A DNA stretch of 64,000 nucleotides from Halobacteriovoraceae bacterium. GTDB lineage: Bacteria; Bdellovibrionota; Bacteriovoracia; Bacteriovoracales; Bacteriovoracaceae. The position numbers were made by a program, and so were the translations under genes. Location of the stretch: contig CAVRCF010000001.1 in assembly GCA_963719505.1 (NCBI GenBank), positions 64,001-128,000 on the forward strand, in the 5' to 3' direction. The notes beneath the pieces are model-generated. The model saw only the letters and a program-made list of their open reading frames with translations, made no database searches and had not been told where the DNA came from. Shown here in pieces: positions 5,148-12,559 of this stretch (positions within the stretch are counted from its first letter, which is position 1; each line of letters starts with the position of its first letter).

Positions 5148-6008
5148 TTACTGCATATCACCTGGGATTTCTGATGGATCAACATCTGCTTCAAACCAAG
5201 AGTCAATAAAGATTGTGTCCGAGTAGTCAATCAACTGCTCACCAAGATAAGCTCTGGTCAGACGTTGAGGTGTACCAAGAGCATTTTCAATAAAAAACGT
5301 ATTGACGGAGTATCCTCGAGCTTTTATCTCTCTTTCTTCAAAAGAGTCTGTTTCATTATTCCATCTATAAACATGATGGATATAATTATTACGATTTTTT
5401 GAGATCAATCTCATCGCCCAAACATCTCTAAACTTTAAAACAAAGATATCATACTCTTTTAAAGCCTGATCAAGCTGGGCTTGAGTAACATCTGAATAAT
5501 CAATATCACTTTGATAAACTTCTTCAATTTGAAAGCGTGGATCAGTGTTAATTTCTGAATTATTAAAGTCTTCAAGACACTTTGGGGTCTCAGTGATGAG
5601 ACGACGATTTTCTTTATAGGTTTTCAAGATAAATTCATCAAACTTATCACCGTCATCGTCAACTTGATCAACCTTAATTTTATAGACCGTTTTCACTGTA
5701 TCAACAGCATTCACGCAATCACCTGAGAAAGTATTTGTCTCCCAGTTGTATTCATTTTTGAGTTCAATCTCAGTTTCTCTATAAGTGTAGCCGACATTAT
5801 AGCTCTCACTACTTCTTGAACCTCGAGTATCTCTGCTCATGGATCTTAAATCACTTACCGATCTTACTCTTCGTTCATTGGTACAAAGAGACTTACTTGA
5901 ACACGGATCATTTTCATTTTCAATGGCTGGTTGAGAAGAACCTCCAGAACCTGATTTTCCGCACGAGTATAGGGCGAGTAAAGACACGAGTGTAACGATT
6001 ATTTTCAT
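5148..6008 (-). CDS. Hypothetical lipoprotein
   Basis: Start moved to ATG 6008 (MKIIV) after GGAG; lipobox LYSC then GKSGSGGSS linker. Confidence 0.7.
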   Translation of the reverse strand: MKIIVTLVSLLALYSCGKSGSGGSSQPAIENENDPCSSKSLCTNERRVRSVSDLRSMSRDTRGSRSSESYNVGYTYRETEIELKNEYNWETNTFSGDCVNAVDTVKTVYKIKVDQVDDDGDKFDEFILKTYKENRRLITETPKCLEDFNNSEINTDPRFQIEEVYQSDIDYSDVTQAQLDQALKEYDIFVLKFRDVWAMRLISKNRNNYIHHVYRWNNETDSFEEREIKARGYSVNTFFIENALGTPQRLTRAYLGEQLIDYSDTIFIDSWFEADVDPSEIPGDMQ

Positions 6009-6171
6009 ATGATCTCCTTGATGGAGCAACTTTCACACTTTGGACTCGACTTGTCAAAGACTCAAAAGCTCTTGAGACTCGACGCACACTGTAAAATCTA
6101 AAATTTTTATTTGATTTCTGCGTCTTTCAATGACAAAAATAAAGTTCAATTTTTTTTAAAAGGACTTCTCT

Positions 6172-6660
6172 ATGCCATCATTCGACTTAGTTTCCTCACT
6201 AGATATGGGAGAGCTTAAAAATGTATTAGCTATGGCCCAAAAGCAAATTTCTGGTCGCTATGACTTTAAAGGCTCAAAATGCAATATCGAACTTAAAAAT
6301 GATAAAGAATTGCATGTTGTGGCTGAGTCGGAGATGAAAATTGAAGCGGCCATGTCTATTCTCTACGGCTGCATGAGTAAAAGAGGCTTAGGTTTAAAGT
6401 GCTTAGATCTTCAAAAAGTCCTTCCCACTGGTCATCAGATGTATAAGCAGGTCATCATTCTCAACTTTGGTATTAACAAAGAAAATGGAAAAACAATCAA
6501 TAGACTAATTAAGGACTCTAAACTTAAAGTGAGCTCTCAATATTTAGACGAGAAGATTCGAGTGACATCTAAAAAAATTGATGAACTCCAAAACACTTAT
6601 CAAATGCTTCGCAATAGTGAAGAGCTTGAAATTGATGTAAAGATGGAAAACATGAAATAA
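6172..6660 (+). CDS. yajQ: YajQ family nucleotide/c-di-GMP-binding protein
   Basis: MPSFDLVS...RYDFKGS...KIRVTSKKIDELQ. Confidence 0.9.
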   Translation: MPSFDLVSSLDMGELKNVLAMAQKQISGRYDFKGSKCNIELKNDKELHVVAESEMKIEAAMSILYGCMSKRGLGLKCLDLQKVLPTGHQMYKQVIILNFGINKENGKTINRLIKDSKLKVSSQYLDEKIRVTSKKIDELQNTYQMLRNSEELEIDVKMENMK

Positions 6661-6662
6661 GC

Positions 6663-7646
6663 TTAAAGAGTAAAACGTTTCTCTCTGGCCTCTTTCCAAA
6701 CTTTTAAGAATTCTTTTACCTCTTCTCGAGTTCGGGCCACGCTACTGTCCTGTTCAATATCAATGGAATACAGATAAAAAGCGCGCTTTATATTATCGTG
6801 GTCTTCGCTTTTAGAAATCTCCAGGACTTCATCAAAAATATTTTTCCACTCTTTTGGAGAATCCGTCTTCGTAAGTTTTTGAAAGTGGGATATGTATTCA
6901 CCGGCTTCATCACTATCCATTTTTTTAATTTCAAATCCCAGCTCGTCTGGATAAAAGTAATGAGGTTTTATTCTTTTTACACTGGCCACAGCTCGAGCAA
7001 TATATTTATCAAGAGAATATTTAACATGAGCAGGGCTTGGAAGCTTAATTGTTTCATTGGGTTCAATAACATCGAAGTTTGTAATTTGAGGGTTGAGGGC
7101 TTTTATATAGGTTAAAGCTTGTTGGGTATCAATCCCGGTATAGCGAGTGTTGATAATTTTACTCACACTATCCCCTTTTTTAACCTTGTAAGAGGCAAAC
7201 TCTTTTGTCGGCGCTGAATTTAAGACTTTCCCAAGGACAAGCTTATCCCCTACATCCAATAGATTTGGATCTTTTATATGAGGGTTGGCCAAAATTGTTT
7301 TTGCGATTTGTTTTCTTAAAGTGATATGAGGCGCGAGATGTTTATGATTTTTAACAATCTCATTAAAGGTCTCTCCTCTTTTAACCTCATAGACAACATC
7401 TTGCAGGTCTGGAAGAACTAGTGTTTGGCCAGGATAGATAAGGTTGGGGTTTTTGATAAACTGGTTGTATTTTAAGATGTCTTCATAAAGAGCACTCTTG
7501 GCCGGTCCCACTCCATAGTTAATAAAGTTATTAAGAATAAGATTAAGATTATCTCCTTCTTTCACACTATAAACATTTTCATAGGCTGCTTGAAGTGAAG
7601 TTGACGTTAAGAGAATGAGACTTGCACAATAAGTTTTGTTTTTCAT
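6663..7646 (-). CDS. Secreted protein with three LysM domains
   Basis: YSVKEGDNL..NPNLIYPGQTLVLP; YEVKRGET..DPNLLDVGDKL; YKVKKGDSV..LNPQI..IEPNETIKLP. Confidence 0.85.
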   Translation of the reverse strand: MKNKTYCASLILLTSTSLQAAYENVYSVKEGDNLNLILNNFINYGVGPAKSALYEDILKYNQFIKNPNLIYPGQTLVLPDLQDVVYEVKRGETFNEIVKNHKHLAPHITLRKQIAKTILANPHIKDPNLLDVGDKLVLGKVLNSAPTKEFASYKVKKGDSVSKIINTRYTGIDTQQALTYIKALNPQITNFDVIEPNETIKLPSPAHVKYSLDKYIARAVASVKRIKPHYFYPDELGFEIKKMDSDEAGEYISHFQKLTKTDSPKEWKNIFDEVLEISKSEDHDNIKRAFYLYSIDIEQDSSVARTREEVKEFLKVWKEAREKRFTL

Positions 7647-7900
7647 AGTTGCCCTATTTGTTAGTTTTTAATAGCTAAAAATTTTGCTCTTATGATTTTT
7701 AAATGTCCTGAGTTTTGTATCGCAAGTCTACTGCAAATGAGAAAACGGCTAAATCCTTTTATTGAAAAAGTGCTTATTTCCCCCTAATTTAGGGGACTTT
7801 GGTGGGTTTGAACTTTTCTTATTCAATGACAAAAGATTTAGACTTCCATATAAATTCAATGGGTTAGTTTTTAAACCTGTGTCTAAAAATGGGCTCTTAC

Positions 7901-8515
7901 CTAGGCATAGATCTCAAGGGGAAAGCTTTGAGTTAGAAGTTCTAAGATGTCTCTTGTCGTGACAATTCCTTTTAGCTCTAAACTGTCAGTTGTGATGGGG
8001 ATGCAATTAACATTTTCCTCGAGCATAACCCTTGCAATATCAGAGATCGATGAGTGCTCTTGACCTGCTAGAACTTCTTTAACCATGACTTCTGCCAAAG
8101 TGGTCGAGGTTAACTTCTTTGCGCCAAGGACACCCAGGAGTAAACCATCGGAGACAATTCCAACCAGTGTTTTATTTTCAACAATGGGGATGTGGCGAAT
8201 TTTATATTTTGATAACAGCTCCATGGCAGTGGCCACTGTATCTTTAGGACTCAAGGAGTGAATCTTTGTCGTCATAAGGTCTCTGGCATAAACCTTCTTT
8301 CTTTTAATCTTTTGGTTTTCGACATAGCTTGATATTTTACTTTTCTTTGCTCTGGATTGGGTTGTGTGACCATCTTCAGTATCTTTATCTACGAAGTGCT
8401 CCATTAGATCGTTAAAAGATGGTGCCATATTTCTTATGCGATGAACGTTATCTCTATTTTTAGAAGGAATTCGGTAGGGTTTAAATTGACCATTAAAAGT
8501 GACGATTAAAGACAT
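7901..8515 (-). CDS. CBS-domain pair protein
   Basis: ARDLMTT..HIPIVE..LVGIVSD and CIPIT..LKGIVTTRDIL. Confidence 0.85.
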   Translation of the reverse strand: MSLIVTFNGQFKPYRIPSKNRDNVHRIRNMAPSFNDLMEHFVDKDTEDGHTTQSRAKKSKISSYVENQKIKRKKVYARDLMTTKIHSLSPKDTVATAMELLSKYKIRHIPIVENKTLVGIVSDGLLLGVLGAKKLTSTTLAEVMVKEVLAGQEHSSISDIARVMLEENVNCIPITTDSLELKGIVTTRDILELLTQSFPLEIYA

Positions 8516-8669
8516 GACGTTTCCCTTTTGTTGAAATAAAGACCCATAAAGCGACCAGTCTTCAGTTTAAAACATACCATTACAAATTGACAGGAGCTAG
8601 GGACTCAAGGCTTAAAAAAAGATTTTTTTACCTATGGACTTTAATCTATTTGATCTTATAGTTAAGCTA

Positions 8670-8981
8670 ATGAGACTTTTAGTCGTTCTTCTTATTTTCC
8701 AATCTCTTATATTTACAGGTTCTGTGAAGGCAGAAGACTTTGATCGTCATTTTGAAAAGGTTTTATCAACCAATCTTCTGTCGATACAGTCTCAAGTTCA
8801 AAAGTCCTCAGATCCATCTCTTGACCTATCTTTTAAGGATATAGATTTCTTAGACTCTTTGGCCCAAAGGTTATTAAAAGTCTTCGCTGTCTCATTTAGC
8901 GCTCAGGCGCTTTCAGAAGTCTATCCAAAGAAAATCTTTCTTCTCCTTATGGCTCCAAGGTCTCCCCCAGTAAAGATCTAA
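8670..8981 (+). CDS. Secreted leader-type ORF ending in RSPP (candidate ribosome-arrest peptide)
   Basis: Start taken at ATG 8670 (7 nt after TATAGT 8657-8662); signal peptide MRLLVVLLIFQSLIFTGSVKA; C-terminus LLLMAPRSPPVKI*. Confidence 0.6.
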   Translation: MRLLVVLLIFQSLIFTGSVKAEDFDRHFEKVLSTNLLSIQSQVQKSSDPSLDLSFKDIDFLDSLAQRLLKVFAVSFSAQALSEVYPKKIFLLLMAPRSPPVKI

Positions 8982-9021
8982 CTGTTATTGATACATTTAT
9001 CTTTATTTAAAGGAGAATCTC

Positions 9022-9108
9022 TTGAAAGATGTAAAAGGATGGCTATTTGCGATGAGCTTTTTTATTTTAGCTGGCGCACTGATAGCCTTTGAAGTTTATT
9101 TTAATTAA
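9022..9108 (+). CDS. Unannotated 28-aa single-TM microprotein MKDVKGWLFAMSFFILAGALIAFEVYFN
   Basis: AAGGAG SD at 9010-9015, TTG start, one hydrophobic helix, hairpin after stop. Confidence 0.6.
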   Translation: MKDVKGWLFAMSFFILAGALIAFEVYFN

Positions 9109-9118
9109 TTCAGATATT

Positions 9119-9150
9119 TGCAGGTGCTCACAAGGGCATCTGCATGTTTT
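9119..9150. terminator. Intrinsic terminator-like hairpin between convergent genes
   Basis: TGCAGGTGCTC-ACAA-GGGCATCTGCA (G-U pairs on + strand) then TGTTTT. Confidence 0.6.
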
Positions 9151-10654
9151 AAACAACTTCGAGATCTTCAGGTGTCTCAACCTCTCGAACTCTTTCATTA
9201 ACAAATCGATTAATAGCTTCATCGATATCAAATTTTGATTTGGTCACAATCAGAACTTTATCATTTATAAGAAACTTTGTTGAACCATCGGGAATAACAA
9301 AGGAGCCCTCTCTTTTGATAAAAAGAACCAGGCATCCACTAGGTAGACCTAGGTCGACAACTCTTCGCTCAACGGCATAGTCATCATGCTCAATTGTAAT
9401 CTCTCTAATTCCATTTTTCGTTTTTTCTAAAACTTCAAAATCGATGGGAAAGCTTGGATCCTCGATAGATTCAAAAAGAAGACCAAGCTTCTTTGCTAGC
9501 ATCTTTAGAGTCACTCCCTGAACCAGGGCGGAGACCAACACGACGAAGAAAACGATATCAAAAAGGATATGGGCTTTATCTCCGATTTTAACAGCTGCAA
9601 GGCTGGCAAAGACAATAGGAGTGGCCCCTTTGAGCCCGGCCCAAGAGATGAAGATTTTGTCTTTGACGTTAAACTTACTAAACACCAGACACAGAAATAT
9701 CGTTGCCGGTCTTGCAATAAAAATGAGAAAAGCCGCAATGATAAGTCCCTCTGGCGCGATCTTTATAAGGCGACTAGGAAAGACCAATAGTCCCAGCATA
9801 ACGAATAAACCTATTTGAGAAAGCCAAGAGATTCCGTCGTAAAAGCTATAGAGAAATGTTTTATGAAGGATTTTTCGACTACTGATAAGAAGTCCAAAAA
9901 GGTAGATGGCCAAAAAACCATTTCCTCCCAGTTGACTGGCTAAAGAATAATTTAAAAAGAGAAAGGACAGGGTTAAAGCTGGATAGAGGCCAACATGCTC
10001 CAGATTAATGATATTATTTAAAGAGATAAAAGCTTTGGCCAAAATACATCCCACGGCGATACCAACCACGGGATTCAGGAGAAAACTCAGACCGATTTGC
10101 TCGATATCAAAGTTTGGACTCTCCATTAATCCTAAAATAACGGTGACTAAAAAGTAGGCCATCGGATCATTACTACCGGATTCAAATTTGAGAAGGTTTT
10201 TATTATTTGCTGTGACTTGAGAGCTTTTATCTTTAAAAATAGAGAAGACCGCAGCCGCATCTGTTGCAGAGAGAATGGCCCCCAAAAGAAGGGATTCCAT
10301 CAGTCCAATTTTCAAAATAAAGTGAGCAAAGATTCCTACAATTCCGGTCGTGAGAAAAATCCCTACCGAGGAGAGAATAATCCCTCGAGCGAGGTTTCCT
10401 TTAATATCCTTAATCTCTGTTTCAATTCCTCCGGAGAAGATAATGAGGCACAGAGCAATAAGACTTAGAGAATGGGTCAGTTCGTAACTTTCAAAGTGAA
10501 TTCCACCCAATCCCTCACTTCCAGCGACCATCCCTACCAACATAAAAATAATAAGAATTGGAAGCCCAAAACGACTAGAGGATTTGCTCAGTAAGACACT
10601 AAGAAGCAGGATAATTGAACCTGCCAGAATAAAGTTATTAAGAAATAATTCCAT
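9149..10654 (-). CDS. cvrA: K+/H+ antiporter (CPA1, NhaP2/CvrA type) with C-terminal TrkA-C/RCK-C domain
   Basis: ATDAAAVFS, FESGSNDPMA, FVMLGLLVFPS, WAGLKGATPI motifs. Confidence 0.88.
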   Translation of the reverse strand: MELFLNNFILAGSIILLLSVLLSKSSSRFGLPILIIFMLVGMVAGSEGLGGIHFESYELTHSLSLIALCLIIFSGGIETEIKDIKGNLARGIILSSVGIFLTTGIVGIFAHFILKIGLMESLLLGAILSATDAAAVFSIFKDKSSQVTANNKNLLKFESGSNDPMAYFLVTVILGLMESPNFDIEQIGLSFLLNPVVGIAVGCILAKAFISLNNIINLEHVGLYPALTLSFLFLNYSLASQLGGNGFLAIYLFGLLISSRKILHKTFLYSFYDGISWLSQIGLFVMLGLLVFPSRLIKIAPEGLIIAAFLIFIARPATIFLCLVFSKFNVKDKIFISWAGLKGATPIVFASLAAVKIGDKAHILFDIVFFVVLVSALVQGVTLKMLAKKLGLLFESIEDPSFPIDFEVLEKTKNGIREITIEHDDYAVERRVVDLGLPSGCLVLFIKREGSFVIPDGSTKFLINDKVLIVTKSKFDIDEAINRFVNERVREVETPEDLEVV

Positions 10655-10756
10655 TAAATATCGACACCATTATTTTTCATTTGATTGTATCTCAAGTGGT
10701 CTTTTGACGATACAGAGAAATCTTAACCCGCCGACTGAGGTCAAGAATTGGGCGTG

Positions 10757-12559
10757 CTATTTTTTGGCAATTTCCCTTAGAAAATCATCACCAAATTTCT
10801 CACACTTACTTTGGCCTACTCCATTAACCATAAGAAACTCATCTTTATTTCTAGGGAGAAGCTGACACATATCGTGCAATGATTTATCAGAAAAAATGAG
10901 GTAGGGAGGAACATTTCCCTCTTTGGCCAATCGAGAGCGAAGTTGGCGCAAATTTTCAAAAAGATCGTCTTGACCGTGGGAGGCTGCAATTTCTTTAGAT
11001 GTATGCTTTGACCTTTTGCTTGAGGTCAGCTTTTCCTTTTGAATACGCATCATAAAAGGTTCTTGCCCCTTGAGAAGTGGTGCACTTTTAGGGGTGAGAG
11101 CTAAATTTCTATAGTCCCAATTTTTTATGCGAATATAACCTTCTCCTAGAAGTTGACGCAAAAGAGTATTCCAAAATGTTTTTGGCTTATCTTTCCCAAC
11201 GCCGTAGACCGATAGTGTGTTGTGTTTTCTCTCTAAGACTTTGGCATTTTCTGATCCTCGAAGAACATCTATCACGTGCCCTGCTCCAAAACTTTCGCCG
11301 GTTCTATAGATGGTTGATAGGATTTTTTGAGACTCCACCATGGCGTCAAATGTATCAGCCGGTTCAAGACAGGCATCACAATTTCCACAAGCTTGAGAGA
11401 GGTCTTCACCAAAATAGCCTAGAAGATATTGTCTTCTGCAATTGATGCTCTCACATAAGGCAAGCATTGAATCAAGTTTTGCCCTTGCCACACTTTTATA
11501 AGCATCTGCCGCTTGAGAATTCTCAAGCATCTGGGACAACTTCATAACGTCTTGCAGACCGTAAACCATCCAAGCGCTGGCCTCTTCACCATCTCGTCCT
11601 GCCCTTCCCGTCTCTTGATAGTATCCCTCGATACTTTTTGGAAGATCCAGGTGGGCGACAAAACGCACATTTGGTTTATCGATCCCCATCCCAAAAGCAA
11701 TGGTAGCGACGATAATAATATTTTCTTCTCTATTAAATTTCGTTTGAATCTTTGAGCGTTTTTCTGAATCCATACCGGCGTGATAAGCATAAGCACTAAA
11801 ACCGGCTTTCTTTAACTCACCTGCAATTTTTTCAACTTTTTTTCTTGATAGGCAGTAAACGATGCCATTTTCATTTTCATGATGAGTTTTAATAAAATTG
11901 ATAAGCTGTTTTACTTCATCATCTCTATTGGTGATTTTATAAGAGATATTTGGTCTATCAAAAGAGGAGACGAAAATGCCTGGATCTCTCATATTGAGCT
12001 GAACAGCGATATCACTTCGAGTCTTTTCATCAGCAGTCGCCGTCAAAGCAAGTATGGGAACTTCGGGATAGCGATCCTTAAGCACTCCAAGCTGCATATA
12101 ATCACTTCTAAATTCATGCCCCCACTGAGAAACGCAATGGGCTTCATCGATAGCAAAAAGGGAAATTTTAACTTCTAAGGAGTTTAAGACTCCCGACATC
12201 AAACCCTCTGGAGAAATATAGAGAATTTTTGCAGCCCCTGAGTTGAGAAGGCTTCTCACTTGGTCTTTTTCTTCAAGGGACTGTGATGAATTTAAAAAGC
12301 AGCCTTTTATTCCATTTTGGGCAAGATTCATAACCTGATCGTGCATAAGAGAAATAAGCGGAGAGATGACAACAGTCAAACCTTCAAGGCAAAGAGCTGG
12401 AACTTGATAACAAACAGACTTTCCACCACCAGTAGGCATAATGGCAATGGTGTCTTTTTTGGCCAAAACATCAGTGATAATTCTTTCCTGCTCAAAGCGA
12501 AAATTTTTATGACCAAAGGTATCTTTTAGAATATTTAACGCGTTATCTATTGTTTCCAT
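10757..12559 (-). CDS. recQ: DNA helicase RecQ
   Basis: MPTGGGKS, DEAHCVSQWGHEFR, QETGRAGRDG, Zn-binding CRR..CGNCDAC, RQC and HRDC regions. Confidence 0.97.
   Translation of the reverse strand: METIDNALNILKDTFGHKNFRFEQERIITDVLAKKDTIAIMPTGGGKSVCYQVPALCLEGLTVVISPLISLMHDQVMNLAQNGIKGCFLNSSQSLEEKDQVRSLLNSGAAKILYISPEGLMSGVLNSLEVKISLFAIDEAHCVSQWGHEFRSDYMQLGVLKDRYPEVPILALTATADEKTRSDIAVQLNMRDPGIFVSSFDRPNISYKITNRDDEVKQLINFIKTHHENENGIVYCLSRKKVEKIAGELKKAGFSAYAYHAGMDSEKRSKIQTKFNREENIIIVATIAFGMGIDKPNVRFVAHLDLPKSIEGYYQETGRAGRDGEEASAWMVYGLQDVMKLSQMLENSQAADAYKSVARAKLDSMLALCESINCRRQYLLGYFGEDLSQACGNCDACLEPADTFDAMVESQKILSTIYRTGESFGAGHVIDVLRGSENAKVLERKHNTLSVYGVGKDKPKTFWNTLLRQLLGEGYIRIKNWDYRNLALTPKSAPLLKGQEPFMMRIQKEKLTSSKRSKHTSKEIAASHGQDDLFENLRQLRSRLAKEGNVPPYLIFSDKSLHDMCQLLPRNKDEFLMVNGVGQSKCEKFGDDFLREIAKK

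What the first reader, a model, noticed from the sequence alone, without database searches (positions are those of the whole stretch)
8657..9030. Candidate ribosome-arrest (RSPP) leader controlling translation of a downstream microprotein
Seen: a probably leaderless ORF (8670-8981) encodes a signal peptide, a spacer and ...MAPRSPPVKI*. TCTCC in the Ser-Pro codons (8961-8965) can pair with SD GGAGA (9012-9016), and TAAAGAT (8971-8977) with ATCTTTA (8999-9005). In an alternative fold, ATCTTTC-TTCTCCTT (8934-8948) pairs with AAGGAGAA (9010-9017) and GAAAGAT (9024-9030). Either fold hides the downstream SD. Established: SecM (RAGP) and ApdA/ApdP-type (RAPP) peptides combine an export signal with a C-terminal arrest motif, and stalling opens such hairpins. 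Inference: this is an export- or stress-sensing attenuator whose target is a 28-aa peptide rather than secA/secDF/yidC, a configuration I do not recognise as described.
Basis: partly seen in the sequence, partly recalled or inferred. Interest (0 to 1): 0.8.

Follow-up and report, generated by a model that had tools for sequence, protein, structure and literature searches.

The report
Arrest-peptide leader controlling a membrane micropeptide
A small exported "leader" protein that probably stalls its own ribosome at an Arg-Ser-Pro-Pro motif sits in front of a conserved 28-residue membrane peptide in a few predatory bacteria, so it is a likely new example of a known way of sensing protein export, with an unusually tiny output gene.

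Summary
ORF 8670-8981 (signal peptide ... PRSPPVKI*) has no detectable homolog by sequence search. The 28-aa ORF behind it (9022-9108) does: 10 of 238 genomes of the same family carry it. In 9 of those 10 it follows, by 34-43 nt, a 96-104-aa signal-peptide ORF. The only invariant residues of these ORFs are Met1 and R-x-P-P (x = S six times, G twice, A once), 1 or 3 residues before the stop.

The micropeptide shows a clear coding signature, and a stem-loop follows its stop in 10 of 10 loci. Its Shine-Dalgarno core is predicted paired (P unpaired <=0.06) in 8 of 9 loci, against 11 of 53 comparable gene junctions in this genome. The partner is the RxPP codons or the codons just after them.

For this window alone the hairpin is no better than shuffles (z -1.31). 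Modelled stalling barely opens it here.

[quoted passage not shown] This is therefore a new family of a known kind; the micropeptide target appears new. Arrest itself is inferred, not shown.

The parts
8635..8662 (+). Promoter-like site: TGGACT, 16-nt spacer, TATAGT. The -10 element ends 7 nt before ATG 8670, which would give a leaderless mRNA.
   Evidence: 9 of 12 consensus matches; 3 promoter-like sites found in the region against 2.7 expected, so weak alone; 7 of 9 homologous leaders have TAnnnT 4-7 nt before the ATG and 0 of 9 have an SD-like sequence; the background in G000 ORFs is 17% and 46%.
8670..8981 (+). Leader ORF of 103 aa: signal peptide, non-conserved spacer, and C-terminal ...MAPRSPPVKI followed by the stop.
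   Evidence: Only self-hits. Positional homologs in 8 genomes have 96-104 aa and 17-27% identity, with only M1, R97, P99 and P100 invariant. Start 8670 is preferred over 8634 because all 8 homologs begin M-(K/R/I/S) directly at the hydrophobic segment.
8670..8732 (+). Predicted signal peptide, MRLLVVLLIFQSLIFTGSVKA (basic N-terminus, hydrophobic core, V-K-A).
   Evidence: Read by eye; no signal-peptide predictor was available. All 9 leaders share this N-terminal pattern.
8958..8969 (+). RSPP codons (AGG TCT CCC CCA). Expected arrest position: P-site CCC 8964-8966, A-site CCA 8967-8969. TCTCC at 8961-8965 is an anti-SD.
   Evidence: R-x-P-P is invariant in 9 of 9 leaders and in the 10 further database variants. 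P-site/A-site assignment is by analogy with the CruR toeprint described in PMC12992588, section 14.
8934..8948 (+). Second, upstream anti-SD (ATCTTTCTTCTCCTT). It pairs with 9010-9017 and 9024-9030 in the MFE fold.
   Evidence: It lies behind a ribosome stalled at 8964 and keeps the SD closed in the model.
8971..9005 (+). Inner hairpin, TAAAGAT (8971-8977) paired with ATCTTTA (8999-9005), spanning the leader stop codon.
9010..9017 (+). Shine-Dalgarno sequence AAGGAGAA of the micropeptide, predicted fully paired.
   Evidence: P(unpaired) of GGAG is 0.00. It lies 6 nt before TTG 9022.
9022..9108 (+). Micropeptide ORF of 28 aa with one transmembrane helix and a TTG start.
   Evidence: Homologs of 27-29 aa occur in 9 other genomes. 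Pairwise differences by codon position are 0.375/0.205/0.564, 224 of 560 same-residue codon pairs are synonymous changes, and the frame is open in 10 of 10. No Pfam or NCBIfam family.
9119..9144 (+). Terminator-like hairpin followed by TGTTTT. It ends the two-gene unit and lies 4 nt from the stop of the convergent antiporter gene (9149-10654, minus strand).
   Evidence: A stem-loop of -12 to -23 kcal/mol follows the micropeptide stop in 10 of 10 loci.

Best explanation
This is a two-cistron, probably leaderless, transcription unit of the RAPP-like arrest-peptide type.

Proposed mechanism. The first cistron (8670-8981) encodes a disposable exported leader. Its only selected features are a signal peptide, a spacer of about 100 residues, and R-S-P-P three residues before the stop. 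When the ribosome reaches Pro99 (P-site) and Pro100 (A-site), the nascent R-S-P segment hinders peptide-bond formation and the ribosome dwells there. This follows what is described for RAPP/RGPP peptides and, more weakly, for RSPP variants.

In the free mRNA the SD of the second cistron (9010-9017) is base-paired. Its partner is either the RSPP codons themselves or a second anti-SD at 8934-8948. A ribosome parked on the last codons of the leader covers the first partner, and a queued ribosome would cover the second. The SD is then freed, and the 28-aa single-helix membrane peptide (9022-9108) is made.

By analogy with SecM, VemP and ApdA/ApdP, export of the leader by the Sec system pulls on the nascent chain and ends the stall. 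The micropeptide would therefore be produced mainly when export is slow.

What is shown here: the conserved anatomy, the invariance of RxPP, coding selection on the micropeptide, and predicted SD sequestration.

What is inferred: the stall itself, its release by export, the direction of regulation and the function of the micropeptide.
For: (1) The micropeptide is a real conserved gene.
- A profile search of 238 genomes of the order gave strong hits (E <= 2.6e-8) in short open frames in 10 genomes including this one (first seen).
- None was found in the roughly 300 sampled genomes of other families of the phylum, apart from one E 6e-4 hit inside a 387-aa frame.
- The coding signature is clear.

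(2) In 9 of 10 loci an ORF of 96-104 aa ends 34-43 nt upstream of it.
- The nine leaders are 17-27% identical to the window's, and only M1, R97, P99 and P100 are invariant.
- x in RxPP is S six times, G twice and A once.
- PP is followed by 3 residues in seven leaders and 1 residue in two.
- Ten further database variants keep RSPP or RGPP while flanking residues change.

(3) S, G and A are residues reported as arrest-competent at that position.
- RSPP is reported as strongly under-represented in proteomes.
- RAPP-like motifs are reported as enriched at the C-terminus of small secretory proteins upstream of diverse genes (PMC12992588: abstract, passages, sections 13 and 14 read).
- RSPP was found in uORFs clustered with RAPP peptides (PMC10987492, methods passage).

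(4) In this genome's crude ORF set (3871 ORFs), R[AGSD]PP occurs only 5 times.
- Two of those five lie 2-3 residues from the end of signal-peptide ORFs of 91 and 103 aa.
- The other one (RGPP) precedes a ZnuA/ABC-3 metal-uptake cluster, a context of the published kind.

(5) SD-core P(unpaired) is <= 0.06 in 8 of 9 loci.
- The partner lies in the RxPP codons or the 3-4 codons after them.
- Among G000 same-strand gene pairs with 25-60 nt gaps and a GGAG, 11 of 53 are that closed.
- By hand, that gives a binomial probability of about 2.5e-5, but related genomes are not independent.

(6) Covering the modelled stall footprint raises mean SD accessibility from 0.05 to 0.26. With a queued second ribosome it rises to 0.42. 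A ribosome 30 nt further upstream leaves it at 0.04.

(7) A stem-loop follows the micropeptide stop in 10 of 10 loci, so the micropeptide is the only possible downstream target.
Against: - No experiment, and no RNA data (see Tried and rejected).
[quoted passage not shown] RAPP-like motifs alone are reported as insufficient without a suitable upstream segment (PMC7897499 discussion passage; PMC12992588 passages).
- RNAalifold on the nine junctions found 0 consensus pairs. The anti-SD sits in different registers, so there is no column-wise covariation.
- Pro codons (CCN CCN) are intrinsically anti-SD-like in an AT-rich RNA, so some of the pairing may be a by-product.
- For this window the hairpin is not better than shuffles.
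- The modelled stall opens the SD only from 0.00 to 0.03 here (0.19 with a disome). In G245 there is essentially no opening.
- A ribosome at the stop codon opens the SD about as much as one at the stall site (0.29 against 0.26 mean). Plain coupling is therefore not excluded.
- One locus (G248) has the micropeptide without an RxPP leader.
- The three other genomes of the window's own genus lack the pair.
- The background comes from one genome with crude gene calls.
Confidence: 0.65

Rival explanations
1. A conserved two-gene operon without programmed arrest. The leader would be a small secreted peptide whose C-terminal RxPP has another role, such as a recognition or processing motif. The micropeptide would simply be translationally coupled to it, because any ribosome finishing the leader melts the hairpin.
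For: A ribosome placed at the stop codon opens the SD about as much as one at the stall site (0.29 against 0.26 mean). RSPP is only partly arrest-competent in ApdA/ApdP (PMC7897499 passage).
Against: Nothing but M1 and RxPP is conserved in the leader, so it has no plausible folded or binding domain. The residue at x is restricted to S, G and A, the residues reported to support arrest (PMC12992588). RxPP is otherwise nearly absent from this proteome. The constant leader length of 96-104 aa despite sequence turnover fits a spacer between signal peptide and stall site.
Confidence: 0.17
2. The micropeptide is a type I toxin-like hydrophobic peptide, kept silent by mRNA structure and an antisense RNA. 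The upstream ORF would be incidental to its control.
For: It is a small single-helix hydrophobic peptide with a tightly sequestered SD. One promoter-like match lies on the minus strand inside the micropeptide ORF, at 9093..9064.
Against: That promoter match is 9 of 12, and the number of such matches equals the shuffle expectation. The RxPP leader is retained in 9 of 10 loci at a fixed distance, which a type I system does not need. There is one copy per genome and no repeats were seen. No antisense conservation was tested.
Confidence: 0.05
3. The arrest leader is real, but the cue is not Sec export. It could be another envelope or metabolic signal acting on the nascent chain, as copper does for CruR, or general translation capacity such as EF-P or Pro-tRNA supply.
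For: RAPP-like peptides upstream of non-Sec genes respond to other cues (CruR and copper; PMC12992588 sections 13-14). The target here is not a Sec or YidC gene.
Against: The mature part of the leader has no conserved Cys, His or other residues that could bind a ligand. Only the signal peptide, the length and RxPP are kept, which is the SecM/VemP-like pattern. RAPP/RGPP arrests are reported as refractory to EF-P (PMC12992588 abstract).
Confidence: 0.1
4. Not a real feature: chance ORFs and a chance hairpin in an AT-rich intergenic region.
For: The window's hairpin has z = -1.31. The leader ORF has no sequence homolog. Antisense frames have codon scores similar to the sense frame.
Against: The layout recurs in 9 genomes of 4 genera, with invariant RxPP and a micropeptide under coding selection.
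Confidence: 0.02

Closest known systems
RAPP-like arrest peptides: ApdA and ApdP (upstream of secDF/yidC-type genes), CruR of Bordetella, and the seven Streptomyces lividans RAPP/RGPP peptides (PMC7897499, PMC10987492, PMC12992588)
   Same: A small protein with a signal peptide or TM segment. An R-[A/G/S]-P-P motif a few residues before the stop. A non-conserved N-terminal part. A co-oriented downstream cistron a few tens of nt away. Patchy phylogenetic distribution.
   Different: RSPP, reported as a weaker variant, predominates here (6 of 9). The only downstream cistron is a 27-29-aa membrane peptive of no known family, not a Sec/YidC, metal, redox or sigma-factor gene. The mRNA looks leaderless. 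No sequence homology to those peptides was detected.
SecM-secA of E. coli
   Same: An exported leader, a C-terminal arrest motif of the same structural class (RAGP), and a stem-loop that hides the downstream SD and is disrupted by the stalled ribosome (as summarised in the PMC10987492 introduction).
   Different: Different motif and a much shorter essential region. The target is not secA. Here the anti-SD overlaps the arrest codons themselves.
VemP-secDF2 (Vibrio) and MifM-yidC2 (Bacillus)
   Same: The monitoring-substrate logic: export or insertion of the leader cancels the arrest, and arrest unmasks the downstream SD.
   Different: Unrelated arrest sequences, and targets that are known translocation factors.
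Enterobacterial stress-induced small membrane proteins (YncL, PmrR, YoaK, YniD)
   Same: About 30-aa single-helix membrane peptides. They are the nearest clusters by language-model features (scores 0.75-0.80).
   Different: Scores below 0.9 are leads only. There is no Pfam or NCBIfam match. None of these is known to me to be controlled by an arrest peptide (recalled, not searched).

Membership tests
RAPP-like C-terminal arrest peptides (ApdA/ApdP/CruR class) | An R-[A/G, less well S/D/P]-P-P motif within a few residues of the C-terminus | tested here: met
   RSPP lies 3 residues before the stop. RxPP with x = S/G/A is present in 9 of 9 leaders and in 10 further variants.
RAPP-like C-terminal arrest peptides (ApdA/ApdP/CruR class) | An N-terminal signal peptide or TM segment on a small (<300 aa) protein | tested here: met
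   A basic N-terminus followed by a 12-16-residue hydrophobic stretch in 9 of 9 leaders of 96-104 aa. Read by eye; no predictor was run.
RAPP-like C-terminal arrest peptides (ApdA/ApdP/CruR class) | A co-oriented downstream cistron whose SD is masked by structure overlapping the arrest site | tested here: met
   The gap is 34-43 nt. SD P(unpaired) is <= 0.06 in 8 of 9 loci, against 11 of 53 background junctions. However, RNAalifold found no consensus pairs.
RAPP-like C-terminal arrest peptides (ApdA/ApdP/CruR class) | Demonstrated elongation arrest (peptidyl-tRNA accumulation or a toeprint with Pro-Pro in the P and A sites) that depends on the Arg | not testable with these tools
   Needs in vitro translation or toeprinting.
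Sec/YidC monitoring substrates (SecM, VemP, MifM, ApdA) | The downstream gene encodes a component of the protein-localisation machinery | tested here: not met
   The downstream gene is a 28-aa peptide with no Pfam or NCBIfam family, and a terminator follows it. Whether the peptide acts on Sec or YidC is unknown.
Sec/YidC monitoring substrates (SecM, VemP, MifM, ApdA) | Arrest cancelled by export of the nascent chain | not testable with these tools
   Inferred only from the signal peptide plus the constant spacer length.
Type I toxin-antitoxin | An antisense or overlapping sRNA gene, and toxicity of the peptide | not tested
   Only one weak minus-strand promoter-like match at 9093..9064. No Rfam family in 8400-9300.
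Known RNA families (Rfam 15) | A match to a curated covariance model | tested here: not met
   0 matches at E <= 1 in 8400-9300 on both strands.

The most novel reading that the evidence does not exclude
The 27-29-aa peptide is a previously unrecognised envelope factor of predatory Bacteriovoracaceae-type bacteria. It could be an accessory or modulator of the Sec/YidC machinery, or a membrane-stress effector. It would be made only when a dedicated secretion-monitor leader (RxPP) stalls.

It may also belong to a small regulon with a second candidate arrest unit: a 120-129-aa membrane protein ending IRAPS, followed by a 162-173-aa protein with two invariant Cys. That unit lies next to the pair in 5 loci and directly heads the micropeptide in a sixth.

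If true, this would be the first arrest-peptide switch whose whole output is a micropeptide.
Probability: 0.25. Interest if true: 0.75.

Novelty: new member of a known kind. Interest (0 to 1): 0.6.

Why it matters
Arrest peptides are among the few ways a cell reads the state of its export machinery directly from a nascent chain. Until recently their known targets were Sec/YidC genes, and a 2025 study widened this to metal, redox and sigma-factor genes.

Here comparative evidence defines a compact, easily testable family whose only output is an unannotated 28-aa membrane peptide. That has three consequences:
- It gives a functional handle on a micropeptide that gene callers miss.
- It shows that surveys which classify arrest peptides by the annotated downstream gene will overlook such cases.
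- It points to an export- or envelope-linked small protein in predatory bacteria, which, as I recall and did not check here, depend on secreting proteins to attack prey.

The predominance of RSPP, a weaker motif in other contexts, also offers natural material for asking how upstream context tunes arrest strength.

Tried and rejected
- Homology of the leader. tblastn in 41 relatives gave only itself at a meaningful E-value; the next best hit was 0.004 with internal stops. The word-indexed search of 5.8 billion proteins and the HMMER scan of 1.84 billion representatives each returned only the window's own 115-aa call. The family was found only through the micropeptide.
- Synteny. In the same genus, the antiporter ortholog of G002 is followed by DUF3124, ArsC and ACR3-like genes. 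The CBS-protein orthologs of G002 and G003 have other neighbours. No pair was present.
- Codon-usage score. The sense frame scores 0.209 per codon, within the real-gene range, but antisense frames score similarly, so the test is uninformative.
- RNAalifold on the nine junctions gave 0 pairs. I did not hand-fit an alignment.
- Rfam: no match.
- Pfam and NCBIfam gave nothing for the leader or the micropeptide. The exceptions were chance-level hits: LegK7 at E 0.078 and Fun_ATP-synt_8 at E 0.037 in 1 of 10 micropeptides.
- ESM Atlas: the best score was 0.80, so these are leads only.
- Public sequencing runs for window 6000-12000: none was listed, so expression and the transcript start could not be examined.
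- The metagenome contigs and genome-contig scans with the micropeptide profile each returned 3 loci. The three metagenome loci are identical over the compared 500 nt to loci already held. The three genome-contig loci carry the same contig ranges as loci already held.
- Weak micropeptide hits (E 1e-3 to 0.8) fell on the last helix of a roughly 250-276-aa multi-TM protein in nine genomes. I judged these to be hydrophobic-segment similarity. That protein has no Pfam family.
- Marginal profile hits in G072, G134, G155, G178 and G204 were inspected and rejected, because they have no start/SD context or lie inside longer frames.
- A search for the RAPS protein in G000 found nothing. The 173-aa protein has only a distant paralog in another context.
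- Earlier findings of this scan: nothing by place, words or sequence.
- Supplementary files of the papers were closed. The lists of RAPP/RGPP uORFs in PMC12992588 and PMC10987492 might include members of this family, and I could not check.
Full report
**1. What is in the window**

Between the divergent CBS-pair gene (7901-8515, minus strand) and the convergent Na+/H+-exchanger/TrkA_C gene (9149-10654, minus strand; Pfam) lie two plus-strand ORFs.

- The first runs from ATG 8670 to TAA 8981 (103 aa). A gene caller's version starts at ATG 8634 (115 aa).
- It begins with a typical signal peptide and ends ...M-A-P-R-S-P-P-V-K-I. The RSPP codons are at 8958-8969.
- Forty nt after its stop, an AAGGAGAA Shine-Dalgarno (9010-9017) precedes TTG 9022. 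This opens a 28-aa ORF that is essentially one hydrophobic helix with a basic N-terminus.
- A hairpin followed by a T-run lies at 9119-9144.

**2. Is the hairpin more than chance in this window?**

Not on its own.

- The MFE fold of 8925-9035 pairs 8934-8948 with 9010-9030 and encloses the 8971-8977/8999-9005 hairpin. It scores -20.8 kcal/mol with z = -1.31, and 20 of 200 shuffles do as well.
- In a 136-nt context the SD core is fully paired (P unpaired 0.00). The pairing is split between the upstream anti-SD and the RSPP codons, which take 0.60 of the mass. Three of 100 leader shuffles close the SD as tightly.

**3. The leader ORF looks like an orphan; the micropeptide does not**

The 103-aa protein hit only itself in every search:
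- 41 related genomes;
- the 5.8-billion-protein index;
- the 1.84-billion-representative HMMER scan.

Same-genus genomes have no syntenic counterpart.

The 28-aa peptide behaved differently.
- It hit a 31-codon frame in another genus at E 5e-5.
- Directly upstream of that frame lies a 104-aa signal-peptide ORF ending ...S-R-S-P-P-F-L-N.
- Profile searches of all 237-238 genomes of the family/order then gave strong hits (E <= 2.6e-8) in 27-40-codon open frames, plus one 73-codon frame with a GVG start context. In total this is 10 genomes in 4 genera.
- Among 401 genomes sampled across the phylum there was no hit outside the family. The one exception was an E 6e-4 match inside a 387-aa frame.
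- Scans of metagenome and genome contig collections returned only loci already held. The record titles there name Bacteriovoracaceae/Halobacteriovoraceae MAGs.

**4. Anatomy across the ten loci**

In nine loci the micropeptide (27-29 aa) is preceded by an ORF of 96-104 aa whose stop lies 34-43 nt before the micropeptide start. The start codon is ATG in seven loci, GTG in one and TTG in two.

| Genome | C-terminal tail of the leader |
|---|---|
| G000 (window) | PRSPPVKI |
| G092 | PRSPPVSS |
| G013 | SRSPPFLN |
| G245 | SRSPPFFS |
| G246 | SRSPPHFS |
| G074 | PRSPPL |
| G088 | PRGPPTKV |
| G094 | TRGPPYRM |
| G087 | SRAPPT |

- Aligned, the nine leaders share 17-27% identity with the window's. 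The only invariant columns are M1, R97, P99 and P100.
- Ten further variants in the protein database, close relatives of four of these, keep RSPP or RGPP while neighbouring residues change.
- All nine leaders start with a basic residue followed by a hydrophobic stretch. This favours ATG 8670 as the true start in the window.
- None has an SD-like sequence before its ATG (0 of 9).
- Seven of nine have a TAnnnT hexamer 4-7 nt upstream. The background in G000 ORFs of 150 aa or more, with crude starts, is 46% for SD-like sequences and 17% for the hexamer. This fits leaderless transcripts.
- A stem-loop of -12 to -23 kcal/mol follows the micropeptide stop in 10 of 10 loci.

**5. The micropeptide is a real gene**

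- Mean pairwise differences by codon position are 0.375, 0.205 and 0.564.
- 224 of 560 same-residue codon pairs use different codons.
- The frame is open in 10 of 10 loci, while the other two frames carry stops.
- Invariant residues are M1, K5, W7, S12 and F13.
- It matches no Pfam or NCBIfam family.
- The nearest language-model clusters are enterobacterial stress-induced small membrane proteins, at scores of 0.80 or below, so these are leads only.

**6. SD masking as a family property**

- Each junction was folded from 75 nt before the leader stop to 18 nt into the micropeptide.
- SD-core P(unpaired) is <= 0.06 in 8 of 9 loci and 0.33 in G094.
- The partner lies in the RxPP codons (G088, G074, G087, G092, partly G000 and G094) or in the 3-4 codons after them (G013, G245, G246).
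- All these positions would lie under a ribosome whose P-site is on the first Pro codon.
- As a background I folded all 53 same-strand gene pairs of this genome that have 25-60-nt gaps and a GGAG at SD distance. Eleven (21%) are that closed, and the median P(unpaired) is 0.49.
- By hand, 8 of 9 at p = 0.21 is about 2.5e-5. Related genomes are not independent, two loci use AGGA rather than GGAG, and the background is one genome with crude gene calls.
- Masking a 27-nt footprint at the stall site raises mean accessibility from 0.05 to 0.26. Adding a queued ribosome raises it to 0.42. A ribosome 30 nt upstream leaves it at 0.04.

Points against:
- RNAalifold finds no consensus pair, because the register differs between loci.
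- Pro-Pro codons are inherently anti-SD-like.
- In the window itself the second anti-SD at 8934-8948 keeps the SD closed in the model (0.03, or 0.19 with a disome). G245 does not open at all.
- A ribosome at the stop codon opens the SD as much as one at the stall site (0.29).

**7. Comparison with what is in print**

- PMC12992588 (abstract, passages, and sections 13 and 14 read) makes four relevant points.
  - RAPP-like motifs, explicitly including RSPP, are strongly under-represented in bacterial proteomes.
  - They cluster near the C-terminus of small secretory or membrane proteins.
  - They lie upstream of genes of diverse function.
  - Ser at the second position partly retains arrest in ApdA/ApdP.
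- The same paper shows arrest for seven Streptomyces peptides and for CruR.
- PMC7897499 (passages) notes that RSPP variants are partly compromised and that RAPP alone is not sufficient.
- PMC10987492 (passages) lists RSPP among motifs of uORFs clustered with RAPP peptides. It also describes the SD-masking stem-loop logic.

The kind of system is therefore known.

I found no mention of a micropeptide target or of this bacterial group.
- The terms 'Bdellovibrio', 'micropeptide' and 'small membrane' have 0 occurrences in PMC12992588.
- 'Bdellovibrio' and 'small membrane protein' have 0 occurrences in PMC10987492.
- Library searches turned up nothing relevant.
- Supplementary tables could not be read.

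A 28-aa ORF is below the usual gene-calling length (recalled). Surveys keyed on the annotated downstream gene would therefore probably miss it. This is my inference.

**8. Internal support from the same genome**

In a crude set of 3871 ORFs, R[AGSD]PP occurs five times, against 10.8 expected from composition when summed over the four motifs. Two of the five sit 2-3 residues from the end of small signal-peptide ORFs. One is the one under study. The other is a 91-aa His/Cys-containing ORF ending RGPPIS, upstream of a His-rich 365-aa protein, ZnuA and an ABC-3 permease. That is a metal-uptake context of the published type.

**9. Neighbourhood**

In five loci the pair lies next to another two-gene unit. 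The orientation is divergent in G013, G245 and G246, and convergent in G088 and G094.
- The first gene encodes a 120-129-aa membrane protein with an invariant S-x-x-IRAPS C-terminus.
- The second encodes a 162-173-aa protein with two invariant Cys.

In G248, the one locus without an RxPP leader, the micropeptide is the third gene of exactly this unit. RAPS is listed among ApcA-cluster motifs in PMC10987492 (methods passage). Neither protein has a Pfam or NCBIfam family. The 162-173-aa family has more than 200 unnamed relatives. The window's genome lacks the RAPS protein.

**10. Verdict**

The interpretation, an arrest-type leader controlling a micropeptide, is supported by conservation that is hard to explain otherwise. 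The arrest, its cue and the peptide's function remain inferred. It is a new family of a known kind with a new type of target.

Noticed in passing
L049 2005-2388 (+) and 2441-2962 (+); L050 703-1086 (-) and 126-647 (-); L051 2029-2418 (+) and 2471-2989 (+); L052 2179-2541 (-) and 1626-2126 (-); L056 557-931 (+) and 957-1445 (+); L053 542-913 (+) and 948-1451 (+): A second candidate arrest unit lies beside the pair in 6 of the 10 loci. It consists of a 120-129-aa membrane protein with an invariant ...S-x-x-IRAPS C-terminus (0-5 residues before the stop), followed by a 162-173-aa protein with two invariant Cys. In G248 (L053) the micropeptide is the third gene of this unit. Neither protein has a Pfam or NCBIfam family.
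   Followed up: partly
L040 1465-1740 (+) (G000 contig C2): A 91-aa signal-peptide ORF rich in His and Cys that ends RGPPIS. It lies 62 nt upstream of a His-rich 365-aa protein, followed by ZnuA (PF01297) and ABC-3 (PF00950) genes. It looks like a metal-uptake arrest leader of the published type.
   Followed up: partly
L041 769-2151 (+) (G000 contig C1): A 460-aa FecR-domain protein carries R-A-P-P-P 14 residues before its stop, directly upstream of a 534-aa TPR-containing protein. This may be another RAPP-type pause site on a long protein.
   Followed up: no
L042 995-1141 (+) (G000 contig C3): A 48-aa ORF without a signal peptide ends exactly in RSPP. It starts where a 189-aa P-loop ORF ends; that ORF looks like a guanylate kinase by eye (not tested). 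No Pfam family, and it may not be a real gene.
   Followed up: no
window 8635-8670, and the equivalent positions of L049-L056 and L072: The leaders appear to be translated from leaderless mRNAs. No SD-like sequence is present in 0 of 9... that is, none of the 9 has one. A -10-like hexamer lies 4-7 nt before the ATG in 7 of 9; the G013 and G245 leaders lack it.
   Followed up: partly
window 9093..9064 (- strand): A promoter-like match (TTCAAA, 18-nt spacer, TAAAAT) lies inside the micropeptide ORF, pointing antisense across its start. The number of such matches in the region equals the shuffle expectation.
   Followed up: no
L038 2822-4950 (same-genus genome G002): Downstream of the antiporter ortholog, G002 carries a DUF3124-like lipoprotein, an ArsC-like gene and an ACR3-like gene instead of the leader-micropeptide pair. 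DUF3124 (PF11322 in G013) recurs beside the pair in G013, G245 and G088. The region is therefore loosely syntenic across the family.
   Followed up: partly
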